A stretch of DNA of 64,000 bases from Octopus vulgaris (lineage: Eukaryota), in the NCBI GenBank assembly GCA_951406725.2, contig OX597819.1:105090001-105154000 (forward strand), read 5' to 3'. The notes under the pieces were generated by a model that was not told where the DNA came from, searched no databases, and was given only the letters and a program-made list of their open reading frames with translations. The position numbers and the translations under genes were made by a program. Positions 2,771 to 47,427 of this stretch are shown one piece after another. Numbering within the stretch: the stretch's first letter is position 1; each line of letters opens with the position of its first letter.

Positions 2771-3845
2771 TATATAAGAAAAGGCATAAATAATGGGTAT
2801 TAATATCTATTTGTGTATCTTAGACTTACAGCTCTTTTTGATATGTATTTTAGATGCCTTCATAGTTCCATTTACTCAGTCACAGACTCTGGAGATTATA
2901 GTATTCAAGGTTGCTTAATTTTTCAGTTCATCAATGAACCAATTGAGTAAATGGATCTATGAATGCACCTGTAATGCATATAAGAAACAACTGTAAATTT
3001 ATGATGCACAAATAAATATGCAAAGCCTATTATTTATGCCTTTTCTTGTTTATCATTCTGTGATATATACAATATTAACTGCGGAATGCAGCTGTGGATT
3101 TACTAAGTCAACTGGTAATGAACTTCAACTTTGAATCTTGCCATAAGATTACCTGGAGTTCTATACTAATCTGAAAACCTTTTATTAGCCTGGTATAGTT
3201 GTATTAACAGAGAGCTTGAGAAGTATTTTACGCAGATTGATAATCCTTATTAATAACATACAGATATAGTGAGAATTTACAAAAGAACAAAAGACGAAGA
3301 CAGGTGTGTAAACAACAAACAGATGTGATATATATATATATATATAATTATTACATCAGAGTATCTGCTAGCTAAGAAACACATGTAGCCTGGGTTTTAC
3401 CTGTTCCACTCACTCTATTTGGGTGTGTGTGTGTGTCTGTCTGTGTGTGTGTGTCTGTCTGTGTGTGTGTGTCTGTCTGTGTGTTGTGGTATTTTACTCA
3501 AGAGGCTTCTTCAGTTTCCCCCTTCAAATCCACTTGCAAGGTTTTTGGTTGGCCTGGGGCTATAATAGAAGACACTTTGGGAAATAATCATTTTTACACA
3601 GCAATGCCTGCACCTGAATATAACATGAAGAAAAGTAAAAAAAAAAAGAATCCTTTTTACTGAAAGCACAAGACCTAAAATTTTGGGGGTGAGGTTTTAT
3701 CCATTACAGTGACTCTGGTATTCATTTTATTGACCCCTAGAAGGATGAACCATAATGTCAACCTCGGCAGCATTTGAACTCAGAATATAAAACTGAAAGA
3801 AATGCCACATTTTGTCCAGCTTACAATATTAATTTCTTAAACTAG

Positions 3846-6256: not shown

Positions 6257-7716
6257 GGATCTTTTCAATTTGATGGCCAGATTTTTTAATTAATTTTTTT
6301 TGACTAAACACTTTGAAACTTCGGATATTGTTAGAATGTGTCACCTAGAACAAGGTTTACTCTTAATATTTTTGACAAAATTTTGTATTTTAGAAGTTAT
6401 TTCATGTTAAAGTTGTCGTATTTGGGTAATTTTAACCAATCAATGATGTGTATTCAGCTGAAGAAAATTACTGCTGCTGTTTGCGAACAACAACTTCCGG
6501 GTTCACTCCCCTAACAAAACCCTTCTTAAATAACCAGAGATGTTTTAATAGCAACACAGATTTGCTGTATCAGGGTTGATTTGAGACTAAATAACATCAA
6601 AATTATTACTGAGACAGACCATCGACAGAGCCTGTATTGGTTGGATGACCTGCTAGAAAAAGTAGCCAAACTTTTTTTATGTACAGAATAGAAAAACCTG
6701 ACACATTCAGCTAGTATCTGCAGTTTCAAACTGTTTAGTTAAAAAAGATTAATTTTAAAATCTTTTAAATTAGACTGACAAGATCTGTGAAACTACTTTC
6801 GTACAACACTGGATATTAGCTATAATATGTACCAAGTTCCCATAACATTTTCTATTTATTTCATACGAAAATCTTAATAAATTACACTAGTCAAGGGAAT
6901 CTCCCTATTTGGAATATGGATACTTGCTTTCTTTCAACTTTTCTTTAACTTTAGCTGCTTCATCATTCAGTGAAGAATATTGTTTTAACCAAAGGATAGC
7001 TCGGATTGTAATGGATCTGTGAGAAAAGGCACTCCAGCCATGACCATTTTGTCTTATTCTTTTCTAGAAGTAATATTAACCTGCATTATTTTTTTCTTGA
7101 AGACGGAAATTTCATTTTTCTTTTTGTCAGGAACTTGAGTGACCAGGTAATAGCTCTCTCATTGCCTCATCTCGTTCCCTTCGTCACTTGTTTAGTCCCG
7201 AGTTAGATCTCATTGAACAGATATGATCAAAGACATCCCAACTGTGTCCATTCTGTCTTTCTTCCCAGACATGATGGACTCTACGTGTATATCACAGGAT
7301 AGAGGTTTTTCTATTCTGTATATAAAAAACGTTTGGCTACTTTTTCTAGCAGGTCATGCAACCAGTAATAATTTTGTTGTTATTTAACCTCAAATCAACC
7401 CTGATACAGCAAACCTATGTTGCTATAAAAACATCTCTGGTTATTAAAGAAGGGCTTTGTTAGGTGAGTGGACCTGGAAGTTGTGTGCAAACAACAGCAG
7501 TAATTTTCTTCAGCTGATTATACATCATTGATTGGTTAAAATTACCCAAATACGACAACTTTAACATGAAATAACTTCTAAAATACAAAATTTTGCCAAA
7601 AACGTTAAGAGTAAACCCTGTTCTATGTGACACATTCTACCAGTATCCGAAGTTTCAGAGTGTTTAGTTTAAAAAAAAATTAATTAAAAGATCTAGTCAT
7701 CAAATTGAAAAGATCC
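6257..7716. mobile_element. GGATCTTTTC-family element with ~270-bp TIRs and ~920-bp internal segment
   Basis: 6257-6527 is the inverted copy of 7447-7716. 8-bp TSD ATATATTG (6249-6256) / ATACATTG (7717-7724). Confidence 0.8.
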
Positions 7717-11555: not shown

Positions 11556-14385
11556 ATTTTTTTTTATCCTGGTCATTTCAATATCATAAAACATCTAAAA
11601 AAAGAGGCTTTATTATGTTTTTCTTTTAAATTTTAATAATTTAGTGGCTATTTTTGCGAAATTTTTCTCAAAACTAAATTCCATACAAGGTCATTCTGAA
11701 AGATTTAGTTGAACGCCCCTCATTAAGTAGATATATATACGCAGTACTTTATTACAAATAGTAATCCCAAGAGAATAAGCAGAACATCTGGTAAAAGTAT
11801 TTTCCGTAAGGGTTTAATAGATATAAATCTTAGGAATTTTCTTAAATGTGTGGGGTCCCTAATTCATATGTTGTCTAAGCTTCTCCTTTTGGCGCGTCTG
11901 CGCGTATCGAATATCTGTGTGCTTATGTGTATGTGTGTCTATATAATCTAAGTGATGCGTTTGTGTTTTGCTTATCAGTTGTTACATTTGTTTCTGCATT
12001 CGTATATGAACTTATTTTATATTAATATTTGGAGGTTCTAAAGATGGCGAGCTCGCAAAATCGTTAGCACGCCAGACAAAAAGGCATTTTTTCCAGTTTT
12101 TGATTTTTTGTTTGAATACCACAGAGATCGACTTGGTCCTTCATCCTTTCGGGGGTCGGTAAAATAATCACTAGTTGAGCACTGTGTCGATGTAACTGAC
12201 TATACTCCTCCCCAAGATTTACGGCCTTGTGCCTTTTGTTGAAAGAACTATGTGGGTTTTCCTATAAGGTGTAGTTTTTCATATCATTACATGATATGAA
12301 AAACTACACCTTATAGATATCATGTAATGATATCTTATCGAATAAAGAAAAAATATTTTATCGTATGTTCTCTTAGATACAATGGCTGATAAGAAACGGA
12401 GTCTGAGATGGAACACCTAATTGACCATTGCGTAAACTTCAACGTTACTCTTCTGGCAATTAAAAAAGTTCGTTTTGCGGATTCATTTTCTAAGAAGAGA
12501 TACAGGAGTTTCGCGGAACTTTTCCAAAGTTTAGCATATAATTATAACTAGGTGTTATAATTCGAAACCTAACTATTAGACTTTCGGTTAGATACCATGA
12601 GTGAGCCACCATAGTTTCGCGTAATTGATTTATGTAAATCAATCAATCAGCTTGAAGCTGTGACGTGATATGGCTTACTCGGATATTCTAAAATTTAACC
12701 CATTTTCACCTTATAAAAACCGTTTGGCGCCTAACTTATGGAAGAGTGTCGAGAATGGCCGACTGATTTACGCGCCTCGTTTCTTGCCAGGAAGACGACC
12801 TCTGTCATTCGAGCATACAATTTCGGACTTTTGCGCAGACGATTTGTTACATTCACACGATATCCCAATTACTAAGTTTTCAAATGCTGTACTAAACTTT
12901 AAACCTGTGGCCTTTATATTGTCAAAGCAAAAGATTAAATCCAATAAAACCAAAAATAGCAAAAACTACTGGTACACCTTACAGCTACCTATCAAAAGAA
13001 ATACATCTAAATATTCACACCTGCTTACAAAGTCCTACATACATGAATAAATTCTTAGCAATAATATAAACTCAAATTTAATTAATAAAACTTTTTCCAT
13101 AACATCTCTCCAAAACAACCCACCATAGGAAGATTTTAACTCGAGATTATGTAAAGCCAAGATTAACTTCAATGCATCGCAGTCCAACGATGGCTTAACT
13201 GACAGAGACTTCGAAGTCACTGTTAATAATATTTTTGTTTAAGAATATTGAACGTCTACTCTACAAAAGTGTAGAGTAACCCATCAAATTAATGTAAAAT
13301 TATTTCTATTACAACTGGATATAAAAACAAACATTTGCATATATACATAAGCACAGGAGTGGCTGTGTGGTCTGCCCGAGGCTACTATAGAAGACACTTG
13401 CCCAAGGTGCTACGCAATGGGACTGAACCCGGAACAATGTGGTTGGTAAGCAAACTACTTACCACACAGCCACTTCTGCACTTATGTATATATGCAAATG
13501 TTTGTTTTTATATTCAGTTGTAATAGAAATAATTTTACATTTTCACACCTTTTTACCATAAGGCATGTTCTCCACGGTAACAGCCTTTAGCAGTTGAAAT
13601 ATGTAACGAACATATTTCAACTAACCTAAGTTCTGCTCATACCTAAACACTGCTTTGCACTAATGCTCCGTAGTATATGTGTCTGTGTGTGTATTTCTAT
13701 TTATATTAATTTTTATATATCTTGCCATCTGTCCAACATCAAGCATTTGATCTGCGCAGCATAATGCAGTAAAAGACTCCCCTGATGAGGTGTTGTAACC
13801 CAACATCCAATTGCACTTGGAACATCACTGCAAAGAATGCAAATAACCACAACGGTGAAAGGTATGTAGGGAAAAATGATATAAACTTGTGTTTATCATC
13901 ATTTTTCACACACATACATACACGCAAACACACACACACACACACACAACTGAAAGGCACAGGCATAGGTGTATAGTTAAGACACTTGCCTAAGATGCCC
14001 ATGGCAGGAATCTTGGACAAGTGTCTTCTATTATTGCCTCGGCCCGACCAATACTTTGTGAGTAAATTTGGTAGTGGAATCTTGTCGTATGCTCTTTTAC
14101 AAGTTTCAGTAATTTGACTGCGGCCATGCTGGAGCATCACTTTTAGTCGAAGAAAGCTACCCCAAGACTTGTTTTTTGTAAACCTAATACTTATTCTATC
14201 GGTTCTTTTGCCGAACCGCTTTTTCGGGGACATAAACACACCAACATCAGTTGTCAAGCGATGGTGGGTGGGGCGATAAACACACACACACACACAGTTG
14301 AAATTTACAGAAAAACAAAAGATGAAGAAAGGTGTATAAACAACAAGCAGGTGTATTAGTTTGACGCTCGGGAAGGTGAGACAGT

Positions 14386-14421
14386 CTTTTACGTTTCGAG
14401 CCTACGCTCTTCAACAGAAAG
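14386..14421 (-). ncRNA. Minimal hammerhead-like fold (core CUGUUGA) in a short microsatellite-embedded repeat (~14296-14455)
   Basis: Minus strand: CTTT CTGTTGA A GAGC-GTAG-GCTC GAAA CGT A AAAG. Stem I CTTT/AAAG, palindromic ACGT stem III, GUA triplet. Confidence 0.5.
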
Positions 14422-15420
14422 GAACACGAGGAAATAAACAGAGAGAGAGAGGAAAATATATATATACATCACAGGCTTCTTTCAGTTTCCGTCTACCAAA
14501 TCCACTCACAAGGCTTTGGTCGGCTAGGGGCTATAGTAGAAACACTAGAGGCTATAGTAGAAAACACTTGCCCAAGGTGTCACGTAGTGGGACTGAACCT
14601 GGAACCATATGGTTGAGAATCAAACTTCTTACCACACAGCCACCTGAAGGACTGCTGGAATAGGAGTGTGAATCTGAGATGGGAGTACGTTGAATAAGAT
14701 CATAACTAATCCTATTTTTTTTACTCGAAGCCAGGAGCTTTTCAGCACCCATCATCTCTCTATATATAATCTTCTAACTTCTATATAAAATCCTTTGTTC
14801 CCATTGCATTCTCAAACGGTCCAACCAAATCAAATCAAATTTTACATGGTAATACTATCACACATGTGTGTGTATACAAAATAAACAGAAAATGGAGAAA
14901 TATTGATCAACAACGATAGACTTACATCAATTATTATTTAATTTAATGCAAATAGACTGCATCCCATCTAACAGCTGTTTCTGCTTCCAATGTCGTATGA
15001 TATTGCCATTGATATTCGAAAAATAATATTCATCATATTTAGTAATAAATCCGATCTGGAACATAGAGCTTCATCAGAGTGAAGAAAAATACATACATAA
15101 AAGAAAAGAAAAGAAAGAAGAACCTCGAGAGGAAAAGGAAAGGCTGAATATGTTTAAATCATACCATTTTGCTTATGTGTCGCTTTGGGACGTCGAGTAA
15201 ATGACGAAACTTAAAACAATAATTGGTGGTTTAATTTTTTCTATGGGGGTATTAAGGTGGATAAGTAATAAAACAGTAAAAATAAAAAAATTACAATAAC
15301 GAGATACGCCAATAGGTTTATATATATATAAATAAGGGCAAACGAAAAAATTTCTAATGCCAACTATGCCGAAAATTGGACATATTGTCCATAACCATAT
15401 AAAAAATTATATATATATAG

Positions 15421-15582
15421 GCGCAGGAGTGGCTGTGTGGTAAGAAGCTTATTTCCTAAACACATGGTTCCGAGTTCAGTCCCACTGCGTGGTACATTGA
15501 GCAAGTGTCTTCTATTATAACCTCGGACAAACCAAACCCTTGTGAGTGTATTTGGTAGACAGAAACTGAAAGAAGCTCGTCG

Positions 15583-15649
<67 letters not shown>

Positions 15650-15672
15650 GTGTATATATATATGTGTGTATG

Positions 15673-15703
<31 letters not shown>

Positions 15704-15880
15704 TATTTGTGTCTGTGTTTGACCCCACCATCGCCTGACAACCGATGTCCTCGTCATTAGCGGTTCGGTAAAAGAAGCGATAGAATAAGTACTAGGCTTA
15801 CAAAGAATAAGTCCTGGGGTCGATTTGCTCGACCAAATGTGGTGCTCCAGCATGGCCGCAGTTAAATGACTGAAGCAAGT
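15421..15880 (+). mobile_element. Full-length tRNA-derived SINE (octopus-type) with internal (TA/TG)n
   Basis: A-box TGGCTGTGTGG, B-box GAGTTCAGTCC, body GGATTTGGTAGACGGAAACTGAAAGAAG-like, tail CCAGCATGGCCGCAG..AATGACTGAA. Confidence 0.85.
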
Positions 15881-15952
15881 CATATATATATGTATGTATA
15901 CATATATATACATGTATGTATGTATACAAATATATATATATGTACATGTATA

Positions 15953-16015
<63 letters not shown>

Positions 16016-16039
16016 GTCTGTGTATGTATGTATGTATAT

Positions 16040-16826
16040 CACCATCGTCGTCGTTTAATGTTCGCTTTCCATGCTAGCATGGGTTGGACGATTTGACTGG
16101 GGACTGGCGAACCAGATGGCTGCACCAGGCTCCAATCTGATCTGGCAGAGTTTCTACAGCTGGATGCCCGTCCTAACGTCAACCACTCCGAGAGTGTAGT
16201 AGGTGCTTTTACGTGCCACCGGCACGAGGGCCAGTCGGACGTCACTGGCAACGGCCACGCTCAAATGGTGTTTTTTATGTGCCACCTGCACAGGAGCCAG
16301 TCAAATGGTACTGGCAACGATCTCGCTCGGATGTTTTTTCACGTGCTACCAGCACAAGTGCCAGAAGGTGACGCTGGTAACGATCACGCTCGAATGGTGC
16401 TTTTTACGTGTCACCGGCACGGAAACCACTTTGCTGCTCTGGCAACGATCAGGCTTGGATGGTGCTCTTAGCGCTCCACTAGCACGGATGCCAGTCATCG
16501 AATTTGATTTCAGTTTCACTTGCCTCAACAGGTCTTCGCACGCAGAGTTGTGTCCAATGAAGGAAAGGTGCGCATAAGTGGGCTGGTTACATCCCTGGCA
16601 TAGGTCACTTGGCTTGCCGGGTTTTCTCAAGCACAACATATTTCCATAGGTCCTGGTCACTAGTCATTGCCTCGGTGAGGCCTAATGTTCGAAGGTCATG
16701 CTTCACTATCTCATCCCAGGTCTTCCTGTGTCTACCTCTTCCACAGGTTCCCTCTACCGCTAGGGCGTGGCACTTTTTCACACAGTTATCCTCATCCATT
16801 TTCGCCATATGACCATACCAGCCAAA
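16040..16826 (-). mobile_element. 5'-truncated RTE-clade LINE: ORF end plus long structured 3'UTR and (GAT/GAC)n tail
   Basis: WYGHMAKMDEDNCVKKC...GRGRHRKTWDEIVKHDL matches the RTE WxGHVxRM...GRGRPRKTW motif. 3' end CCAACCCATGCTAGCATGGAAA..GACGACGATG. Confidence 0.85.
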
Positions 16827-17173
16827 TGTATACATATACTATAGCCTCAGGCCCACCAAAGCCTTGAGAGTGGATACCGTGCACGGAAACTGAAAGAAGA
16901 CTATCGTATAAATGTGTGTATTTGTGTGTATCTGTTTTTGCACCCTCACCATCACTTGACAACCGATGTTGCTGTGTTTATGTCCTCGTAACTTAGCAGT
17001 TTTGCAAAAGCCACTGATAGAATAAGTAGTAGGCTTATAAAGAATGAATCCTGGGGTCGATTTCTTCGACTAAAGGCGGTGCTCTAGCATAGCCGCACTT
17101 ACATGACTGAAACAAGTAAAACAATAAAAACAGCTATGCCATTTTAATCCTGAGCAACGCCAGGTATCTGCTA

Positions 17174-17215
<42 letters not shown>

Positions 17216-17310
17216 GGAGAATTCACAAAAAAACCCCCAACAAAAGACGAAAACAGGTGGTGTAGATAACAAACAGATGTATTAGTACAACGCTCAGGAA
17301 GTGAAAAAGT

Positions 17311-17346
17311 CTTTAACGTTTCGAGCCTACGCTCTTCCACAGAAAG
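17311..17346 (-). ncRNA. Minimal hammerhead-like fold (core CUGUGGA), same repeat family (~17216-17410)
   Basis: Minus strand: CTTT CTGTGGA A GAGC-GTAG-GCTC GAAA CGT T AAAG, GUU triplet. Confidence 0.5.
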
Positions 17347-17684
17347 GAACACAGAAAGAAACAATGAGAGTAAATAAAGAATGTATAATGACTAGCGATC
17401 AGCTAACCGACTGCTTGAAGCTTACAAATTCCCTACACTCAAATCCCTGTACTTTGCACCAATCTAACACACACAACCCACCTCCCCCCACAAAAATACT
17501 GGGGACGATTTTCTTTTTCGACTTTGGCTACAGTCCAATGACTGAAAGAAGTAAAAGACAAAAGATTTATAGATATGTATACAGAAAATTTAAATGGCAC
17601 CTTGGGCATGTGTCGTCTGCTATAGTCCCGGGCCGACCAAAGCCTTGTGAGTGGATTTGGTAGACGGAAACTGAAAGACGCTCG

Positions 17685-17732
<48 letters not shown>

Positions 17733-18349
17733 GTGTGTGTATATGTTTGTGTGTCTGTGTTTGTCCCCCCCAACATCGCTTGACTATCGATGCTGGTGTG
17801 TTTACGTCCCCGTCAATTAGCGGTTCGGCAAAAGAGACCGATAGAATAAGTACTAGGCTTACAAAGAATAAGTCCTGTGGTCGATCTGCTCGACTAAAAG
17901 CGGTGCTCCAGCATGGCCTTAGTTAACTGACTGAAACAAGTCATATATATATGTATGTATAACGTATTTTTTCTTTGTTTTAGCCATTAGACTGTAGCCA
18001 TGCAGGGACAAAGCCTTGAAGAATTTTTAATCGAATGAATCGATCCCAGTGCTTACTTTTTGTTAAGCCGAACCGCTAAGTTACGGGATGTAAACACCTC
18101 AACACTGGTTATCAAGCGGGCGGGCGGAGGGGGTAGACACAGGCACAAAGACACACACACACATATATAGATATATGCGACAGGTTTCTTTCAGTTTCCG
18201 CCTACCAAATCCACTGACAAGGCTCCGGTCGATCTGAGGCCATACTAGAAGGCAGTTGCCTATGGTGCCACGAAGTGGGATTGAATCCGAAACCATGTGG
18301 TTGTGAAGCAAGCTTCTTACCACACAGCGTCTCTCTTTCTATATATATA

Positions 18350-18396
<47 letters not shown>

Positions 18397-20159
18397 GCAG
18401 TCTCTTTATATATATATATATTAGTCATAGGCATATGTGTGTATGTATGTGTTTGTGGCTACACCACCGCTTGACAACCGGTGTCGATTTGTTTACGATT
18501 TGTTTGCGGTTTGACAAAAGAGACCGATAGAATAAGTACCAGGTTTTAAAATAAAGTAGTGGGGCCAATTCATTCGGACAAAAAACTCAAGGCGGTGCCC
18601 CAGCGTGGCCGTAGACTGAAACAAATAAAGATACTTGTATAAAAAAAATCTGTTCTTACAATGTTTTAAAATTCGACATAAAAAGGTTTGTATGTGGAGG
18701 GAAGTAAAATGGAATATAAAACGGATATAAAAGTTATATATCTGAAATATATTCTTGAGTATTAATTAATTACTCGTCCTAAATAAATAAAGAAAAAAAA
18801 TATGCTGTAAATATCTATTGACTAATTTCCCTGTTTAAGCTGGAACCGGCAATATATTTGCTTACTCAGCAGTGAGAGATGTAGACAAATAAGCAAGCTA
18901 CGACCTATTTTACATTCTTCACGCTAGTTTAAATTCCCCCCTTTTCCCCTCCTTATGTGTTTTGATTACTTTTCCTACTTCAGATTTTCTTTCTCTTTCA
19001 TCTTCTGTTTATTTTCTTACTTTTCCTCTCTCTTTGTCCATTCTTTCTCTTTCACGTTTGCGCAATCTAACTTTTTCTTTCTGTCCTTCTTTCTCTAAGC
19101 TTCTACACTTTATTCATTCTACCTCATCTTAACCCTTTCACCTTCATAGCTACACTCTTCTCTTTATTCTTTTCTTTCTCATTTTTTTTTCTTAACTTTC
19201 AGTTCCCCTTTTCCGACTTCTGTTACCCTAACATCCACTCCTTATATCCCAAATGACTTCTTAACGACACGTCTGCTCGAATAATTTAAAATGTTTTTTT
19301 TTTCTTTTATATTCATTTTTTTCCCTGTTTCTTAAAGAACTTAGCGCTACAACATTCCTAAACCACTGTCATAATCCTGTAATGTATCCCTACTTCCCAT
19401 CCATTCATATGATCATCTGGCACAGGATTTCCTTTAGTTCTATCACGATATCCTTACCCACAATTTACTGCTCAACTTCATTTACTTTTCCTGTTTCTAT
19501 ACTTGTTTTCTTTCTCTTCTCTTCAAAAACTCACTCTATCTCCATTTCTCTTCCCCTTCGATTCACCGTTTCTTCATCCAAGTTATCTAAATCCCTCTCT
19601 CTATCCCGGTTTCTTTCCGTGTCTCTTTTTATGTCGCTTTCTTTCGGTCTTGTATTTGCTGTATTTTTCTTTTTTCCTCTTTCAATCCATCCATCCATCC
19701 ATCAAGCTCTCTATCGAATTCTTTCACTATGTATGTCTCTTTCTTTCATTCACTCTATTCCTTTCATATTCACACACATATCTATCTATATCTACACACA
19801 CATATATATAATATATAAATATATATATAAATTATATATATCTAATATAATGTGACAATTATACATATATATAATGTATATATATAAAATCTATAAAAAT
19901 TATATAAATATAAATGTATATATATATAAATATATATGTATGTATATATACATATATATACCTACACGGCCATAGTCATGAAGCTTGAGCGAAGTTAAAC
20001 TTTGTAATAATATATAAACTAAGCAAGATAAAAGTATAGGAGCATGAGGCTGATTAAGAAAAAAATAAAACAAAAAAACGGTATGGAGACCCAACATGGT
20101 TATAATTAACAAGATTCTCTTTTCACCGTTTCCTTCTCCACCTCCTTCTTATTCTCTTC

Positions 20160-21100
20160 CTCAGTTGATGTTTCTCAGCGACATCGATGAACTTCCATAA
20201 CGGAAGTATTGCAAAGCGCAAGTGCGTCTCACTCACTCGCTTTCTGACCAGTCTGGTTTATTTTGTTGCTTATTCATTTATTTATATATTTATTTATTTA
20301 TTTGATTGTTTGTTTACTTTTTAATTTAGTACTTTTTCTCTTCTGCTTCTTTTCTTTTTTTTTTTTTTAACCTCCCCCTTTCGTTTCTCGGGGACGATTT
20401 TGATTGGTCAAATATTTAAATAAATAAATAAAATAAAAAACAAACCAAGCTAAGTCTTGCTCCGATTAGCTACTTTGCTTAGAAATCAAGGCGGAGTTTC
20501 AAATCTTTGTAGCGGAGCGGCAGGTCCGGTGTTCGTTCGCATGGGGAGGCGGTGGTTGCTAGAACTATCGGAGTCACAACCAGGATGCGGAGGAGGTTTC
20601 ACCTGCTGCTCGGCATCGGAATTATATGGCTGTTCGGAGTAGCTTATTATTTACTGAGAGAAATTAAAACTGAGGTAAGCTTGAGGTATTCTTTTTAAAC
20701 CTTTATTTTTATTGTAATATATTAGAACAATTTTTTCCTTTTTACCTTTCTTTATCCGGAAGTGATTTACCACCGATTCGAGTGGTGGTGATGGTTGTTA
20801 GAGGATATATTATTGTTGCTGTTAGTGGTCTTGTGGTGGGTGAACGTGCACGCGTGGGGGCGGATGGCTTTGATTTCAAGCATGTTATATCGAGTTACCT
20901 CCCCTTTCGGTCTCGCATTGTTGTCAATTTCATTACAGTTACCATCACTACTGCGCTCGTGTTCGTGTTGTTGTCGTCACCTTAGTCATCATCATCATTG
21001 GCGCACTGTCATCACGTTCATTAAATAATTCCTTAATTACCACCATTATCAGTTTATTTCGCGCCATCACTATCCCCATGATCAAGTGTCGAGCAACGGC
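20160..21100 (+). promoter_or_regulatory. CpG-rich promoter and 5'UTR region of GALNT2
   Basis: Local CpG/GC enrichment around exon 1. ETS-type CGGAAGT at 20201-20207, an inverted ACTTCC at 20191-20196, CCAAT box (TGATTGG) at 20401-20407, and CCGGAAGT at 20756-20763. Confidence 0.6.
20585..20674 (+). CDS. GALNT2: GALNT2-like polypeptide N-acetylgalactosaminyltransferase, coding exon 1 (cytoplasmic tail plus type II signal anchor)
   Basis: ATG at 20585 gives MRRRFHLLLGIGIIWLFGVAYYLLREIKTE, closely resembling the vertebrate GALNT2 N-terminus ([22 protein letters not shown]). It ends at a strong donor GAG|GTAAGC in phase 0 and lies in CpG-rich DNA. Missed by the ORF track. Confidence 0.9.
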
Positions 21101-22208
21101 GGTAGATTGGCAAAATCATTAGAGCATCGGTATTTATTCCGGCTCTCATTTATATTCTGAGTTCAAATCCCGTCGAGGTCAACTTTACCTTTCGTTTCTC
21201 GACGAAGTACCAGTCAGTTACTAGTGTCGATACAATCGACAAAACCCCATTCTTCGTAAATATCTGGTCTTGTGCCTATGTTAGAAACGATTATTTAGAG
21301 TCGGACTGCTGATTCTGCGTCTCCGTTTCGGTTTACATTTAGATATATTTCACTTCTTGTGTGTCGCTAATTCCCTCTGGAATGAACGTCACAGATCTCA
21401 TTCTATACACGCTTCTCTTTAATAAATATATAAATCCTTATATTGTGTTAGTAATCATTATTCTGAGCCGGTCTATATCCTTTAGTATATATTGCACTGA
21501 GTCCAACACACGTTGGGAGTGTCTGTCACTCCGACCGATGGGGCGATAAATGATATTATACCAAGATACTGAGGGATCGATTTAATTAAATTACTGGTTT
21601 TGTGCCCGTGGTCTAAAAAAGGGTTGTCTTTGTTGTCGTTATCATCATCATCATTATTATTGTTTCACCCCGGTCGCTGTCGTACTCCTGTGTTATTTTC
21701 TTTCAACAAGTTTCATTCATGTCTCGTGACATTAAGTGTCACAATTAAAATTGTGATGCTTATTTTAGTTACAGAACTCTACCTAATTCTCTGATTGTAT
21801 GAGTCTACCCCACCTTGATACACTGGGATTCCACATCTCGTTCTTCGAATGTCAGTCCTCAAGTTCGGTGTCTTTTTAAAGAGCATTAAAAGAACATTCT
21901 CGCCTTACGGCTTCGCCGATGATGCATACATCGGTTTGTTAACATAGTTCGTATGCATATGAGTGGAGTATATATTTATATTCATTCATATATGCTCACA
22001 CACCACCCGTATATACACAATCGTTTATGTATGTTACCCTTATAAAGATTTTGTATTCTTGCACGTATTCCAAACATTTATACATTGTGTCTTTTGAACG
22101 TATTTGTATGGAATAGACTAGTGTATTATATGCACTCATAAAAACCTTTAACATGCTAACATGGTCCATGCCTTAGGTACTCTCATAGTACACAGTTTAA
22201 TAATCGTG

Positions 22209-22253
<45 letters not shown>

Positions 22254-22494
22254 CATACATATATACACTCACATACATGTGCTACCATGCATGTAGTCTC
22301 ATGTCAAGGCTGTTATCTTGTATAGTGGTGTTGAAAGACCTTTATTACACATACATATGCATTTTAGTATTATACCTCGCTATTACACGGTCCGGTGTTT
22401 ATCGGAGATTTCATAATGTACACTATACATATTTATACAGTCCGATTTGTGTATTTATAATGATATCTGAAAGAATTCATTGCAGACGGCCATA

Positions 22495-22841
22495 CTATCT
22501 GTCTGTCTATCTAGCTCTCTGTCTGTCTATCTATCTATCTGTCTGTCTGTCATCTATCTATCTATCTATCTGTCTGTCTGTCATCTATCTATCTATCTGT
22601 CTGTCTGTCATCTATCTATCTATCTGTCTTCTGTCATCTATCTATCTATCTGTCTGTCTGTCATCTATCTATCTATCTGTCTGTCTGTCATCTATCTATC
22701 TGTCTGTCTGTCATCTATCTATCTATCTGTCTGTCATCTATCTATCTATCTATCTGTCTGTCTGTCATCTATCTATCTATCTGTCTGTCATCTATCTATC
22801 TATTTGTCTGTCTGTCATCTATCTATCTGTCTGTCTATCTA
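22495..22841. repeat. Compound (TCTA)n/(TCTG)n/TCA microsatellite
   Basis: Directly visible; explains ORFs 22277-22858 and 22480-22887. Confidence 0.97.
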
Positions 22842-25501
22842 TGTGTATATATATATAAAGTTTTTAAAATTATTTTGTATTATATAATGATACGCACCCC
22901 CACACACGGTAAACCCCATGTACACACTATTATTTAGTAAATTATATAGTGTTATTGTACATACATTCACAGATTCGTATGTTGATCGATTGTTTTGAAA
23001 ATCCTGCTTCGTCTCATATACCTAATAAAAATTAGAGGCTGTTATATTCCATGTAATACCTACATGTGGTTTTGTTAGAAGAGTATATTGTCAATATAGT
23101 TGATAAACTCATTGTATATGTGTGTTGTTATATATCGTCAACCTTCTTTCCGTGAAAAATAAAAAGGCGAAGTTGTCCCTGGTGAGATTTGAACTTAGAA
23201 TACAGAATACATAAACAATGTAAACGATATTATCTGGACCCTCTGTCGTTGCCATCAATAACAACATATTCAAAAAGTTTAAGAAATGGGAAATGGATTT
23301 ATAATAACTACTCTAACTTTGCAGAATCCTTCAACCCGCCACTTTTCAACTAAAGATGACTCTGTAAGTAACTGTGCTGTTGAGAAAGTCACAACATTGT
23401 TACCTGTTTCGATTCTGACTACACACATGCATACAAACGTATACCCAGACACACATACGCTTACACATCCACTCGTACGCTTGCACATCCACTCACACAC
23501 ATACCAAAATTCTTCGCAAAGTCTTCCGTTTCACCCCGTCTGTCTTGCCACCTTGTATATGTGTATATGTGCGTGTGTATGTGAGAGTATCTGTGTGTAT
23601 GTATGTATGTATGAGAGAGAGAGAGAGAGAGGTACTAAATGCGAACCTTGCTGATCCCCATCCTCCTGGATCAGTTTCGTGTCAGGAAAACATGTGGCTA
23701 TTTAACTTTTTTTTTAAAAAGAAAAGAGCGGGGTAGGGGAGGGCGACTTCTTTTATGGCATTCCTTCAGTTGTAACAGCAGACATTTCAAAAATCACAGC
23801 CCTTTCGTTCGTTAATTTCCATAACAAATTTTTATTTCATTAAAGAGAGGAGAAAGTGAAAAGACATTTGCTTTAGAGTGACTTTTTGCGGGTCACACAG
23901 GGCGACCACTTTACATGTAGTCGAAGGTATGTTAATGTTTAAAGAAGGGTGGGCGTCAATTTGGCTGCTGCGCTGCACAGTGCAGTCGAAAACCCACTCT
24001 ACACTACTTTAAACAATTCTTGTTATGTTAAGCACTTTTTTGCTTTCAGTGCAGATTCTGTGGAGCGAGATACTAATGAGACATGTTTTCATGAACCTGT
24101 GATAACCTTGTCCTACGAAACTTTGGTACTGATAGCCTTGATATCAGCAAACTCTTACTTTTGATAATTACTAAAAGTATTTGCATTGTTGGGAATCCTT
24201 TATTTTCAAAAGGTATCTCAGAGTCACAGGTGTTTTGCCCGGTAGCCTGTATGCTTCACTTGAGTAGGGCGTATGTACATGATGCCATACTTCATTCCAT
24301 AACCCTACAAGCACTACACTATATACATACCCCCACCCCACTGCCCAAACTACTGATGACTCAGCTCAAGTGGTTTTGAAAATATAGTCCTTTCTCTAGT
24401 TCAAATGTGACCTACCTATGTGGTTATTGCTCACATATCTGGAGCTGTGCCATTATTTCACACAAAAGAAAACCACCTACATTTCATAAGAAAAAAAATG
24501 TAAAGCAGAAATAAGGCAAAAGCCACTTTAGTGGATTGCTGAAGACCTGTTAAAATGCTACACAGTGTAGATCTCCCAACTTCAGTGGTTTCTGCCTCAT
24601 TGAGCTTACACAATGCCCTTACTTTGCCCTCTTTCTCAATACTGCATCACATCCTACAAACACCCACTTCTAAACTGTTCCTTCCCAGCACTGAAGCTGC
24701 CTCTGTTGTTGTTTAGCCTGGGGTCAGTTGTGGTTCAGTACACCTATATGTAGTCATTCCAGTCATAACTATCTCATCTCTTATTCCGTCCTATTGTACC
24801 TAGGACTACATTATCTAACATGTCCTGGGTGTGATATGTGGGAGATTTGACTGCAATCATCTTATTGGTCCTTTTCACATTTCAAGTAGTCATACATCAT
24901 ATCCACTTCACCAGACATTTTGAGCCTTTGAAGTTGATAAGAATTGCTCCACAAGACTTGTTTTTTTTTTTTTTCAAACTCCAGTAAAGCTTTTCAAAGA
25001 TGCAGAAATTAATAATAAATGAAAAAAAAAAACCTGGAAATCTCTAGAATTTCTTTTACTAAAACAGAAACAATTGCTATAATAGTTGCTAAGTTGGGGA
25101 CAGTACAGAAAAGAAAGGCATAACCATTCAAAATCCCTGGAGTTAGAGACATCATCAATTTTATGTTTTTTTTACATATACTGGCAAAGGTTGGATGAGA
25201 TTCTTTTTTGGCAGTACTTTATGGCTGGATGCCCTTCTTGATGTCAATCTGTACTTGATTCCAAGTAAAGTACTTTTTACACCTGAAGTTTTCACATGGA
25301 AATTATTGATTTGGCAGGATGTTATTTATAAGGGACACAGTGTCACTGAAAATACAGACACGTATGTGTGTGTGTAAGGAACTTTTTCATCACCCATTCC
25401 CTTCTGATCATTTCAAAATGTAACCACATGTGAATCGTTGGCGATTTTTTTTTTTTTTTTTCCTTCATCTTCCTTTGCTCTTGGACTTTGCTCTGTCTCC
25501 T

Positions 25502-25536
25502 GTTTCTGAAGAAGAGCTTTGCTTGAAATGCAAAAC
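25502..25536 (+). ncRNA. Decayed hammerhead-like fold with canonical CUGAAGA core, related repeat (~25470-25625)
   Basis: GTTT CTGAAGA A GAGC-TTT-GCTT GAAA TGC A AAAC. Stem I has changed to GTTT/AAAC with pairing kept; stem III is mutated. Confidence 0.45.
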
Positions 25537-25687
25537 CACCTTTCTTTCCTTTCCTGAGCGTCTGTTAATACTTCGCATCCTCATGTTTTTTTCTTGTGTT
25601 TGTTCTCCGTTTGTTAGGATTTACAATTTTATATATATATATAATACACGTGTGTGTGTGTATGTATATATATATACATATATATAT

Positions 25688-33289: not shown

Positions 33290-34078
33290 GGATCTTTTCC
33301 TTTTGAAGGCCGGATTTCAACACAATTTCTAGTTAACTAAACACTTTAAAACTTCGTATACTGGTAGAATGTGTCAAAAGAAAACATTATTTTCAGTTGG
33401 TTTCTTGATAAATTTGTAATTCGTTTGTTTAACGTAGTTTAATTTTTCGAATTTTAACCAATGAATCGCCTCCATTTGAGCTGAAATCATTTGCTGCGTC
33501 TAAAAACTGAGACAACATCCTGTAACTAACCCTCCCCCTCCCCTAACCCTAATTTTTTTCTTCTTAATTGTTAAATTAATTTAATTGTTACGCGTGTAAA
33601 AATACTAAAGCAATGGAAAATAATTTAAACAATTAACATACAAAATAATTCTATAATTTTTATACACACGCTTTCCGTACGTAGAAGAAAAGCGTGTGTA
33701 TAAAAATTATAGAATTATTCTGTATGTTAATTGTTTAAATTATTTTCCATTGCTTTAGTTTTTTTACACGCGTAACAATTAAATTAATTTAACAATTAAG
33801 AAAAAAAAAAATTAGGGTTTGGGTTAGGGGGGAGGTGAGGGTTAGTTACAGGATGTCTCAGTTTTTAGATGCAGCAAATGATTTCAGCTCAAATAGAGGC
33901 GATTCATTGGTTAAAATTCGAAAAATTAAACTACGTTAAACAAACGAATTACAAATTTATCAAGAAAGCCAAGTGAAAATAATGTTTTCTTTTGACACAT
34001 TCTACCAATATACGAAGTTTTAAAGTGTTTAGTTAAGTAGAAATTGTGTTGAAATCTGGCCTTCAAAAGGAAAAATAC
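33290..34078. mobile_element. Foldback DNA transposon derivative, GGATCTTTTC family, ~385-bp arms, 8-bp TSD
   Basis: Near-perfect inverted arms around a ~14-nt loop (33675-33688). TSD CTTATTTG at 33282-33289 and 34079-34086. Internal CCCTAACCCTAA / TTAGGG motifs. Confidence 0.85.
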
Positions 34079-46440: not shown

Positions 46441-47042
46441 ATTATTATTATTATTGGCAGAACCATCACTATGCTGGACAAAATGCTTAGTAGTATGTCT
46501 TCTGGCTGTTTATGTACTGAGTTCAAACACCACAGAAGTCGACTTTAATTACTGGGATCAGCAGTATTCCCTAATCCCTCCCACCAGAATTGTAGACCTT
46601 ATGCCAAAATTTGAAACATTTATTATTATTGAGCTAGCAGAATTTTTAGCAGCATTTTGTCCATCTGTACATTCTGGGTTCAAATTCCACTGAGGTCAGT
46701 TTTGCCTTTTATCCTTTCAGGGTTGATAAAATAAGTACTAGCCAAAATGTGAAACTATTATTATATCCAATCCCCACCTCACTTCCACCTCACCAGCCCG
46801 TGTGTCTACCCTGTTCCGTACTCTCATTCTCACTCCCACTCCTTAATTATGTTTCACTTTCACCTTTTCTTTCTCATGTTTTATCTAACTCCCTCCCTCT
46901 TATACTCACCACTTGGTCTCTCTCTCTCTCTCTCTCTCTACTTCCACTCTATATATATGAGTGTTTTACTAATACATCTGTTTGTTGTCTACACCACCTG
47001 TCTTTGTCTTTCGTTTTTTTGTGAATTTTCCCTATATATATA

Positions 47043-47427
47043 TATGCAATAAAGGGTGGAATATAATTAATTTAATAAAATTAATCAATTTCACCTAGTA
47101 GATTTATCAGTATGGAAAAGACCATATTTGGTAAGGGTTATAATAATTATAATTAAGGGTTAAATGCAACAAGTTGCTCAAAACCACATACCGAAAATAT
47201 TAGAAATAGCAGCCAAAATTGCTCACCATTTCCTCTACTATTAAAAAGTCTCCACAAACAAACAGAATTTGTAAGCTGTATATGGCATATACAGCTTACA
47301 AATTCTGTTTGTTTGTGGAGACTTTTTAATAGTAGAGGAAATGGTGAGCAATTTTGGCTGCTATTTCTAATATTTTCGGTATGTGGTTTTGAGCAACTTG
47401 TTGCATTTAACCCATAATTATAATTAT
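47043..47427. mobile_element. 257-bp palindrome (47157-47413) with one-sided ~110-nt tail, inserted in (TA)n
   Basis: Arms GGGTTAAATGCAAC... and ...GTTGCATTTAACCC with a 1-nt loop at 47285; flanked by (TA)n. Confidence 0.7.

What the first reader, a model, noticed from the sequence alone, without database searches (positions are those of the whole stretch)
14296..25625. Short microsatellite-targeting repeat family with non-canonical (U6) minimal hammerheads
Seen: copies at 14386-14421 (-), 17311-17346 (-) and 25502-25536 (+) share the layout stem I / core / extra A / GAGC stem II / GAAA / stem III / stem I. Stem III is a palindromic ACGT with an NUH triplet in the first two copies and is mutated in the third. 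Stem I covaries (CTTT:AAAG versus GTTT:AAAC). Two copies have U at the normally invariant A6 (CUGUUGA, CUGUGGA); the third has canonical CUGAAGA. Truncated members lacking the motif are at ~3268-3327 and ~46965-47035. All abut (TA)n or (CA)n. Established: Penelope-like elements carry minimal type I hammerheads with palindromic stem III thought to act as dimers. Inference: a non-autonomous ribozyme-bearing family that amplified with a variant core that standard motif searches would miss.
Basis: partly seen in the sequence, partly recalled or inferred. Interest (0 to 1): 0.7.

Follow-up and report, generated by a model that had tools for sequence, protein, structure and literature searches.

The report
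Penelope stubs with U6 hammerhead
These short repeats are end-pieces of a recently active, protein-coding Penelope-type jumping gene whose small hammerhead RNA motif has U in place of a nearly invariant A in over 15,000 copies, which likely slows its self-cutting while the rest of the motif is likely kept intact by selection.

Summary
The motifs are real, but this is not a non-autonomous family. The repeats are 3' ends (pLTR stubs) of a Neptune/Nematis-type Penelope-like element; full copies hold a 975-1077 aa RT + GIY-YIG frame between two pLTRs that both carry the U6 motif. The genome has 15,730 exact U6 motifs against 180 A6 and 422 C/G6. Across subfamilies 0 of 34 constrained motif positions vary against 36 of 98 flank positions; only N7 and H17 change, as a hammerhead allows. 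The third window copy is a decayed member of a sister lineage with A6, whose young branch carries another core change, U4C. All 30 motifs in foreign relatives have A6, so U6 is derived. Most stubs span the predicted cut, many begin at a likely transcript start, and at most 3 of 284 begin at the cut. Best reading: a slowed, probably protein-assisted ribozyme; rival: a non-catalytic RNA scaffold. Cleavage is untested. I found no A6U hammerhead in print, but could not read the key paper (Lunse 2017). The scan noted U6 before, in this genome and others.

The parts
14296..14448 (-). pLTR stub of the U6 lineage (subfamily A1), 5' end 31 nt upstream of core position C3; lies inside the microsatellite of another interspersed repeat
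14386..14421 (-). Minimal type I hammerhead motif, C3 at 14417, U6 at 14414, N7 = U, H17 = A; predicted cut between 14390 and 14389
17214..17400 (-). pLTR stub of the U6 lineage (subfamily D), 5' end about 58 nt upstream of C3, followed by (AT)n
17311..17346 (-). Minimal hammerhead motif, C3 at 17342, U6 at 17339, N7 = G, H17 = U
25376..25629 (+). pLTR stub of the A6 sister lineage, about 120 nt of shared sequence upstream of C3, followed by (TA)n
25502..25536 (+). Decayed hammerhead motif with canonical A6 (25509), 3-nt loop II; changes at 25524, 25529 and 25531 break G10.1-C11.1 (to G-U), the palindrome and the NUH triplet
3268..3326 (-). Tail-only stub of the U6 lineage, starting about 34 nt downstream of the predicted cut
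46959..47033 (+). Tail-only stub of the U6 lineage, starting about 20-28 nt downstream of the predicted cut

Best explanation
The repeats are short 3'-end (pLTR) copies of an autonomous Neptune/Nematis-type Penelope-like retrotransposon, and the U6 motif they carry is likely a slowed but still working dimeric hammerhead that is probably helped by the element's own protein. Shown: the full element is a unit of about 4.5 kb (pLTR, 5' UTR, RT + Cys linker + GIY-YIG frame, low-complexity 3' UTR, pLTR), often in head-to-tail tandem; copies share a fixed 3' end about 95-100 nt after the predicted cut, followed by a microsatellite; U6 is fixed in the lineage and derived; only N7 and H17 vary between subfamilies. 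Inferred: transcription starts in the upstream pLTR about 66-80 nt before the motif; the endonuclease nicks (AT)n-type DNA; reverse transcription starts internally at the fixed end and copies back through the uncut motif to the RNA's 5' end (stubs of about 190-200 nt) or stops earlier (shorter stubs, tail-only stubs); starts in the downstream pLTR give long copies. Because the template is mostly uncut when copied, fast cleavage is not needed and may cost templates, so core changes that slow cleavage (U6 here, C4 in the sister lineage) can be fixed while the catalytic G8 and G12, the stems and the ACGU palindrome are retained for a residual processing role.
For: Element identity: longer copies continue into RT and EN coding DNA; L091 has a 929-aa stop-free frame with RVT_1 (E 4e-7, above cut-off) and GIY-YIG (E 0.0036, below the curated cut-off) between two U6 motifs; 6 of 6 further long-frame loci have ATG-to-stop frames of 975-1077 aa and 4 of 6 show U6 motifs on both sides; such copies are 97.7-98.0% identical over 5 kb and one pLTR pair is 99.1% identical. 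Fixation: 15,730 U6, 180 A6, 422 C/G6 exact 27-mers, reversed-pattern controls 0; 66 of 70 motifs in loci chosen by upstream DNA or by protein have U6; A6 copies of this motif mostly sit beside U6 copies of different subfamilies. Selection: 0 of 34 constrained columns vary among 5 flank-defined clusters against 36 of 98 ungapped flank columns; N7 takes all four bases and H17 only A or U among subfamily majorities. Polarity: U6 lineage (100/98) and A6 sister lineage (100/100) form one clade (100/100) whose foreign neighbours carry A6; 30 of 30 motifs in 24 of 116 foreign loci have A6 with position 6 free. Template uncut: 33 of 87 copies have 5' ends within 8 nt of one point upstream of the motif; at most 3 of 284 tail-bearing A1 copies start at the cut. 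Target: microsatellite after the 3' end in 71 of 87 copies against 9.5% of random windows. Literature: natural A6C and U4C cores keep low activity (PMC3088659, PMC7151607); an anole PLE initiates RT internally, uses uncut RNA, and its hammerhead cleaves only with the PLE protein (PMC11167929).
Against: No cleavage was measured and no genomic trace of cutting was found. Saturation mutagenesis of another hammerhead found all CUGA changes except the C3-G8 swap of low activity with no rescue (PMC9901934). PLE minimal hammerheads are weak even with A6 (PMC4209133), so U6 could take activity to zero. Folding predicts that U6 lets U4-G5-U6 pair with the palindrome (pair probability 0.95, 0.75, 0.40, 0.04 for N7 = U, A, C, G; 0.03 in a natural A6 copy), which would oppose dimer formation. 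The invariance test is naive: copies were collected with a motif filter, columns are not independent, flanks also hold invariant runs of up to 12 nt, and loop II is invariant too, which catalysis alone does not require. The transcript start is inferred from DNA ends only; AT microhomology may shift or sharpen the cluster.
Confidence: 0.57

Rival explanations
1. Same element, but the U6 motif no longer cleaves; its fold or sequence is kept as a binding site for the RT-EN protein or as part of the internal promoter or RT-start signal.
For: No copies pile up at the cut; loop II and several flank blocks are as invariant as the core; U6 is predicted to favour a rod that masks the palindrome; two sister lineages each fixed a U-turn change and still amplified; hammerhead mutants did not impair insertion in vitro in PMC11167929.
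Against: The only core positions that changed since U6 arose are the two a working hammerhead tolerates; N7 took all four bases and H17 moved only between A and U, never to G. A pure protein or promoter site gives no reason for that pattern.
Confidence: 0.32
2. The motif is a dead fossil that hitchhiked with a successful element and is under no constraint.
For: A6 is near-invariant in working hammerheads; no cut trace; subfamilies are only about 5-9% diverged internally, so time has been limited.
Against: 0 of 34 constrained columns changed while 36 of 98 flank columns did (naive P about 2e-7); stem II, GAAA and the palindrome are identical between U6 and A6 lineages whose flanks no longer align by BLAST and whose endonuclease segments are 51-58% identical.
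Confidence: 0.06
3. One reading: a non-autonomous, ribozyme-bearing short element (SINE- or retrozyme-like) that spreads on its own with a polymorphic core.
For: 70 of 87 sampled copies are short stubs; L009 holds three same-strand copies within about 700 bp; non-autonomous PLE derivatives exist (PMC8557442, bioRxiv 2026.07.22.740005).
Against: Each subfamily's stub sequence is the 3' end of ORF-bearing copies of the same subfamily; no stub-specific sequence or unit-length tandem array was seen; the L009 copies have different 5' ends and two are separated by (AT)n; the A6 copy is another lineage.
Confidence: 0.05

Closest known systems
Minimal type I hammerheads (min-HHR) in pLTRs of metazoan Penelope-like elements (Cervera and De la Pena 2014, PMC4209133; main text parts 1-2 of 4 and supplement parts 1-2 of 3 read)
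   Same: Position in both pLTRs, sense strand, short stem I, unpaired base between A9 and G10.1, G10.1-C11.1, GAAA, palindromic 15.2-16.2 in place of stem III, NUH, U-rich 5' flank, mostly single dispersed copies from truncated elements.
   Different: U at position 6. All 56 representatives in their Figure S3 have A6 (hand reading), but their descriptor fixed the catalytic boxes, so that set could not have shown U6. Their reported core variant is U3-A8.
Neptune/Nematis-type EN+ Penelope-like elements (Craig et al. 2021, PMC8557442; passages read)
   Same: RT with C-terminal GIY-YIG, CX4CxxC linker, partial tandems with pLTRs, 3' hammerhead, microsatellite insertion bias.
   Different: Variant core; a long low-complexity 3' UTR; Neptune versus Nematis was not resolved against named references.
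Natural core variants A6C (phage Bcep176) and U4C (viroid) (PMC3088659 section 8 and passages; PMC7151607 passages and Table 1)
   Same: Change in the CUGA U-turn that lowers but does not abolish cleavage; the sister lineage here has U4C.
   Different: Those are rare variants in full hammerheads with a proper stem III; here A6U is fixed in over 15,000 copies of an already weak, dimer-dependent minimal motif.
PAc, Poseidon element of the green anole (PMC11167929; passages read)
   Same: Fixed 3' end from internal RT initiation, AT-rich target, no molecules ending at the hammerhead cut.
   Different: Different PLE clade; its motif overlaps the ORF start; its cleavage was shown (protein-assisted), whereas here it is untested.
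Non-LTR retrozymes (PMC7229834 passages; bioRxiv 2026.07.22.740005 part 1 of 5)
   Same: Short hammerhead-bearing repeats related to PLE pLTRs.
   Different: Retrozymes are non-coding unit-length tandem repeats; these stubs are dispersed, ragged at the 5' end and continuous with a coding element.

Membership tests
EN+ Penelope-like element, Neptune/Nematis type | Single ORF with PLE-type RT | tested here: met
   RVT_1 E 4e-7, 30.4 bits over cut-off 29.6; 1133 relatives at E <= 1e-30 with the same Pfam set; ATG-to-stop frames in 6 of 6 loci
EN+ Penelope-like element, Neptune/Nematis type | C-terminal GIY-YIG endonuclease | tested here: met
   GIY-YIG match at residues 834-867, E 0.0036, 18 bits, below the curated cut-off of 22.6; motif and downstream His/Cys residues visible in the translation; atlas neighbours carry PF01541
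EN+ Penelope-like element, Neptune/Nematis type | CX2-5CxxC linker between RT and EN | tested here: met
   CX4CxxC in L091-L110 translations; definition from PMC8557442
EN+ Penelope-like element, Neptune/Nematis type | Partial tandem arrangement forming pLTRs that carry a hammerhead motif | tested here: met
   L091, L103, L423, L425, L427, L428; pLTR pair 99.1% identical
EN+ Penelope-like element, Neptune/Nematis type | Placement in the Neptune rather than the Nematis clade on a tree with named references | not tested
   No named Neptune or Nematis reference sequence was on hand; the tree has unnamed relatives only
Minimal type I hammerhead of PLEs | Core C3 U4 G5 A6 N7 G8 A9 | tested here: not met
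   Position 6 is U in 15,730 of 16,332 exact motifs; the other six positions conform
Minimal type I hammerhead of PLEs | G12 A13 A14 A15.1, palindromic 15.2-16.2, U16.1, H17 | tested here: met
   H17 is A 40, U 29, G 1 in 70 copies
Minimal type I hammerhead of PLEs | Stems I and II with G10.1-C11.1 and an extra base after A9 | tested here: met
   4-bp stem II, 4-bp stem I with one compensatory change between lineages; no covariation within the U6 lineage because the stems are invariant
Minimal type I hammerhead of PLEs | Self-cleavage as a dimer after H17 | not testable with these tools
   Only indirect test: no pile-up of copy 5' ends at the cut, which is also what was reported for an active PLE hammerhead (PMC11167929)
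Non-autonomous hammerhead element (retrozyme or SINE-like) | No coding capacity in the family; sequence distinct from the end of an autonomous element | tested here: not met
   Stubs are collinear with the 3' ends of ORF-bearing copies
Non-autonomous hammerhead element (retrozyme or SINE-like) | Unit-length tandem monomers | tested here: not met
   Copies are dispersed with ragged 5' ends; the one cluster examined (L009) has unequal 5' ends

The most novel reading that the evidence does not exclude
Penelope-like elements are selected to slow their own ribozyme: two sister lineages in one genome independently fixed different U-turn changes (A6U and U4C) while keeping every other catalytic and pairing position, giving a protein-gated or switch-like hammerhead in which U6 also hides the dimerisation palindrome until the element's protein opens it.
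Probability: 0.25. Interest if true: 0.72.

Novelty: new variant of a known kind. Interest (0 to 1): 0.45.

Why it matters
The role of hammerheads in Penelope-like elements is stated to be unclear in PMC8557442. This genome offers matched natural alleles in recently active sister elements (A6/U4, U6, C4) with the same stems and palindrome, so one set of cleavage and retrotransposition assays could tell whether catalysis or only the fold matters. It also shows that CUGANGA-based searches miss the most abundant of the motif families counted here (15,730 U6 against 4,389 for the sister motif). If U6 cleaves, the list of tolerated natural cores grows; if not, it is a ribozyme turned into a structural element.

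Tried and rejected
Rfam scan: no hammerhead model hit. PDB sequence search with the ORF: 0 matches. Pfam on three short degenerate fragments: 0 families. Alternative register reading UUGAAGA as U3-U4-G5-A6: rejected because stem II then fails and the supposed U4 is the position that varies among all four bases. An ancestral A6 sub-lineage inside the U6 family: not supported; most of the 25 A6 tips have U6 copies of various subfamilies among their nearest neighbours, though five of the six N7 = G copies lie near each other and two pairs are mutual neighbours. Pile-up of 5' ends at the cut: at most 3 of 284 in U6 subfamily A1; 58 candidates in one A6 subfamily were mostly indels, with about 3 at the cut and no denominator, so the comparison is uninformative. 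RNA: no RNA holder listed on record; 20 of 23 listed runs hold the stretch, all as contigs; 8 runs laid showed no start/end site and no splice-like joint, which says nothing on expression. In those runs (five organism codes) no other letter was listed at position 6 at 5% or 1%, but a missing row is not proof. A 3' splice site at the motif (polypyrimidine tract upstream) was considered and left untested. ViennaRNA cannot model the active dimer; its dimer minima were non-hammerhead folds for U6 and A6 alike. The first regex split into subfamilies mixed groups (B1 row); re-clustered on flank columns and left 36 of 175 copies unclustered. In one search, rows with under 90 aligned residues were dropped (1 of 38 loci, 1 of 11 proteins). 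The genome-wide number of C4 copies was not obtained. Lunse et al. 2017 (PMC5785218) and Arkhipova et al. 2017 (PMC5850863) are not held, so a prior report of A6U there cannot be excluded; bioRxiv supplements were not seen.

Full report
Observation. A minimal-hammerhead descriptor with position 6 free finds just the two U6 copies in the window and nothing in 20 shuffles; Rfam finds no hammerhead. The third copy has A6, a different loop II and three damaging changes, and shows no BLAST match to the first two.

What the repeat is. The first copy has 2,537 first-look candidates in the genome; the 30 loci returned share a sharp 3' end followed mostly by (AT)n, (AC)n or (GT)n and have ragged 5' ends. 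Three of the 30 run upstream into reverse-transcriptase or endonuclease coding DNA. A protein search with that fragment gave 13,482 candidates, many with long open frames. L091 holds a 929-aa stop-free frame with RVT_1 and GIY-YIG matches and a CX4CxxC linker, flanked by two pLTRs that both carry the U6 motif. Six of six further long-frame loci have ATG-to-stop frames of 975-1077 aa (their C-terminal ends vary in low-complexity DNA), four with U6 motifs on both sides and three (L423, L427, L428) in head-to-tail tandem; such copies are about 98% identical over 5 kb. By the features listed in PMC8557442 (passages) this is an EN+ Penelope-like element of the Neptune/Nematis type, recently active. 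Its best protein relatives are 52-56% identical and mostly unnamed; named ones come from a shark, snails, a coral and an urchin.

U6 is fixed and derived. Exact 27-mers number 15,730 with U6, 180 with A6 and 422 with C or G (about 87 C and 13 G in the first 100 listed, hand count), as expected from mutation after insertion. In loci picked by upstream DNA or by protein, 66 of 70 motifs have U6. A separate motif with the same stem II but a 3-nt loop has 4,389 exact copies, 97 of the first 100 with A6 and none with U6; the third window copy belongs here. It too is linked to endonuclease-coding DNA. On an endonuclease tree of 48 rows the U6 and A6 lineages are sister clades (100/98 and 100/100, joined at 100/100) and their foreign neighbours carry A6. 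In 116 foreign loci that encode relatives, 30 motifs in 24 loci were found with position 6 free; all have A6, and five shuffles gave none. A young branch of the sister lineage has U4C instead: 6 of 14 fetched loci show it, two in both pLTRs, with copies 95-98% identical.

The motif is under constraint. Clustering 175 copies on flank columns gave five clusters (36 copies unclustered); among their majority sequences 0 of 34 constrained stem and core columns vary against 36 of 98 ungapped flank columns. N7 is U, C, A or G by subfamily and H17 is A or U, the two freedoms of a hammerhead core. Caveats: the copies passed a motif filter, columns are not independent, loop II is invariant as well, and flanks contain invariant runs up to 12 nt.

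How the stubs arise. In 87 U6 copies taken from the first 100 listed, 33 have 5' ends within 8 nt of one point 66-80 nt upstream of C3, 8 end in the next 22 nt upstream, 29 end further downstream and 17 extend further (one of these is probably a spurious alignment). I tested this after an earlier scan note suggested it. A microsatellite follows the 3' end in 71 of 87 against 9.5% of random windows. At most 3 of 284 tail-bearing A1 copies begin at the predicted cut, and these could also be double CpG decay. This fits what was shown for an anole PLE: RT starts internally, uses uncut RNA and prefers AT-rich DNA, and the hammerhead cleaves only with the element's protein (PMC11167929, passages). 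I infer that most stubs are cDNAs of the uncut front of the transcript or early terminations, not a self-spreading element.

Does it cut? Untested. For: everything except position 6 is conserved in hammerhead fashion, and natural A6C and U4C cores keep low activity (PMC3088659 section 8; PMC7151607 passages and Table 1). Against: CUGA mutants were of low activity without rescue in a saturation study (PMC9901934, passages), minimal PLE motifs are weak already (PMC4209133), and U6 is predicted to let U4-G5-U6 pair with the palindrome in three of four N7 backgrounds. I put residual cleavage at a little over even odds and a non-catalytic scaffold or promoter role second.

Novelty. PLE hammerheads, their dispersed truncated copies and microsatellite targeting are known (PMC4209133, PMC8557442, PMC6765202 section 11). 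I found no A6U natural hammerhead in nine searches, and all 56 representatives in PMC4209133 Figure S3 have A6, but that set was descriptor-bound and the paper most likely to list such variants (Lunse 2017) is not held. Earlier notes of this scan report U6 in this genome and in other animals; I could not check the other genomes. The additions here are the sister-lineage comparison, the A6-only foreign relatives and the U4C branch. Verdict: a new variant of a known kind, of moderate interest, with a clean bench test.

Noticed in passing
L437-L441, L433 (e.g. G000:C20:57826000-57833600) and bystander copies in L124, L196, L224, L254, L259, L398: A branch of the A6 sister lineage has C at core position 4 (U4C), in both pLTRs of near-full-length copies; genome-wide count not obtained.
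   Followed up: partly
L122 (G000:C2:178469456-178469482): Chimeric stub: 5' part from the A6 lineage joined to the 3' part of the U6 lineage inside the shared core/stem II sequence, suggesting a template switch or recombination at the motif.
   Followed up: no
L414 position 985 (sense): A third motif version with A6, the same stem II and a different 3-nt loop, with its own downstream sequence.
   Followed up: no
L204, L002, L009: Inverted pairs of pLTR stubs close together (tail-to-tail in L204 and L002, head-to-head in L009), as described for PLE insertions.
   Followed up: no
upstream of the motif in all lineages, e.g. window 14422-14448 (-): A long polypyrimidine tract precedes the motif, in some subfamilies after a branch-point-like CTAAC; a 3' splice site near the motif, as in D. 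virilis Penelope, is possible but no splice joint was seen in contigs.
   Followed up: partly
window 47143-47427: Near-perfect palindrome, two 142-nt arms 99% complementary with 1 nt between them, about 110 nt from the 46959 stub.
   Followed up: no
window 6294-7677 and 33295-34074: Long inverted repeats (arms 91-98% complementary) that look like MITE or foldback DNA elements.
   Followed up: no
window 14100-14660 and at least six other places (families D7, D8, D11, D14): An abundant SINE-like repeat with an internal microsatellite; the 14296 stub is inserted in that microsatellite.
   Followed up: no
L356-L392: Penelope-like ORFs with hammerheads occur in prokaryotic genome bins, most likely animal host DNA in the bins.
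   Followed up: no
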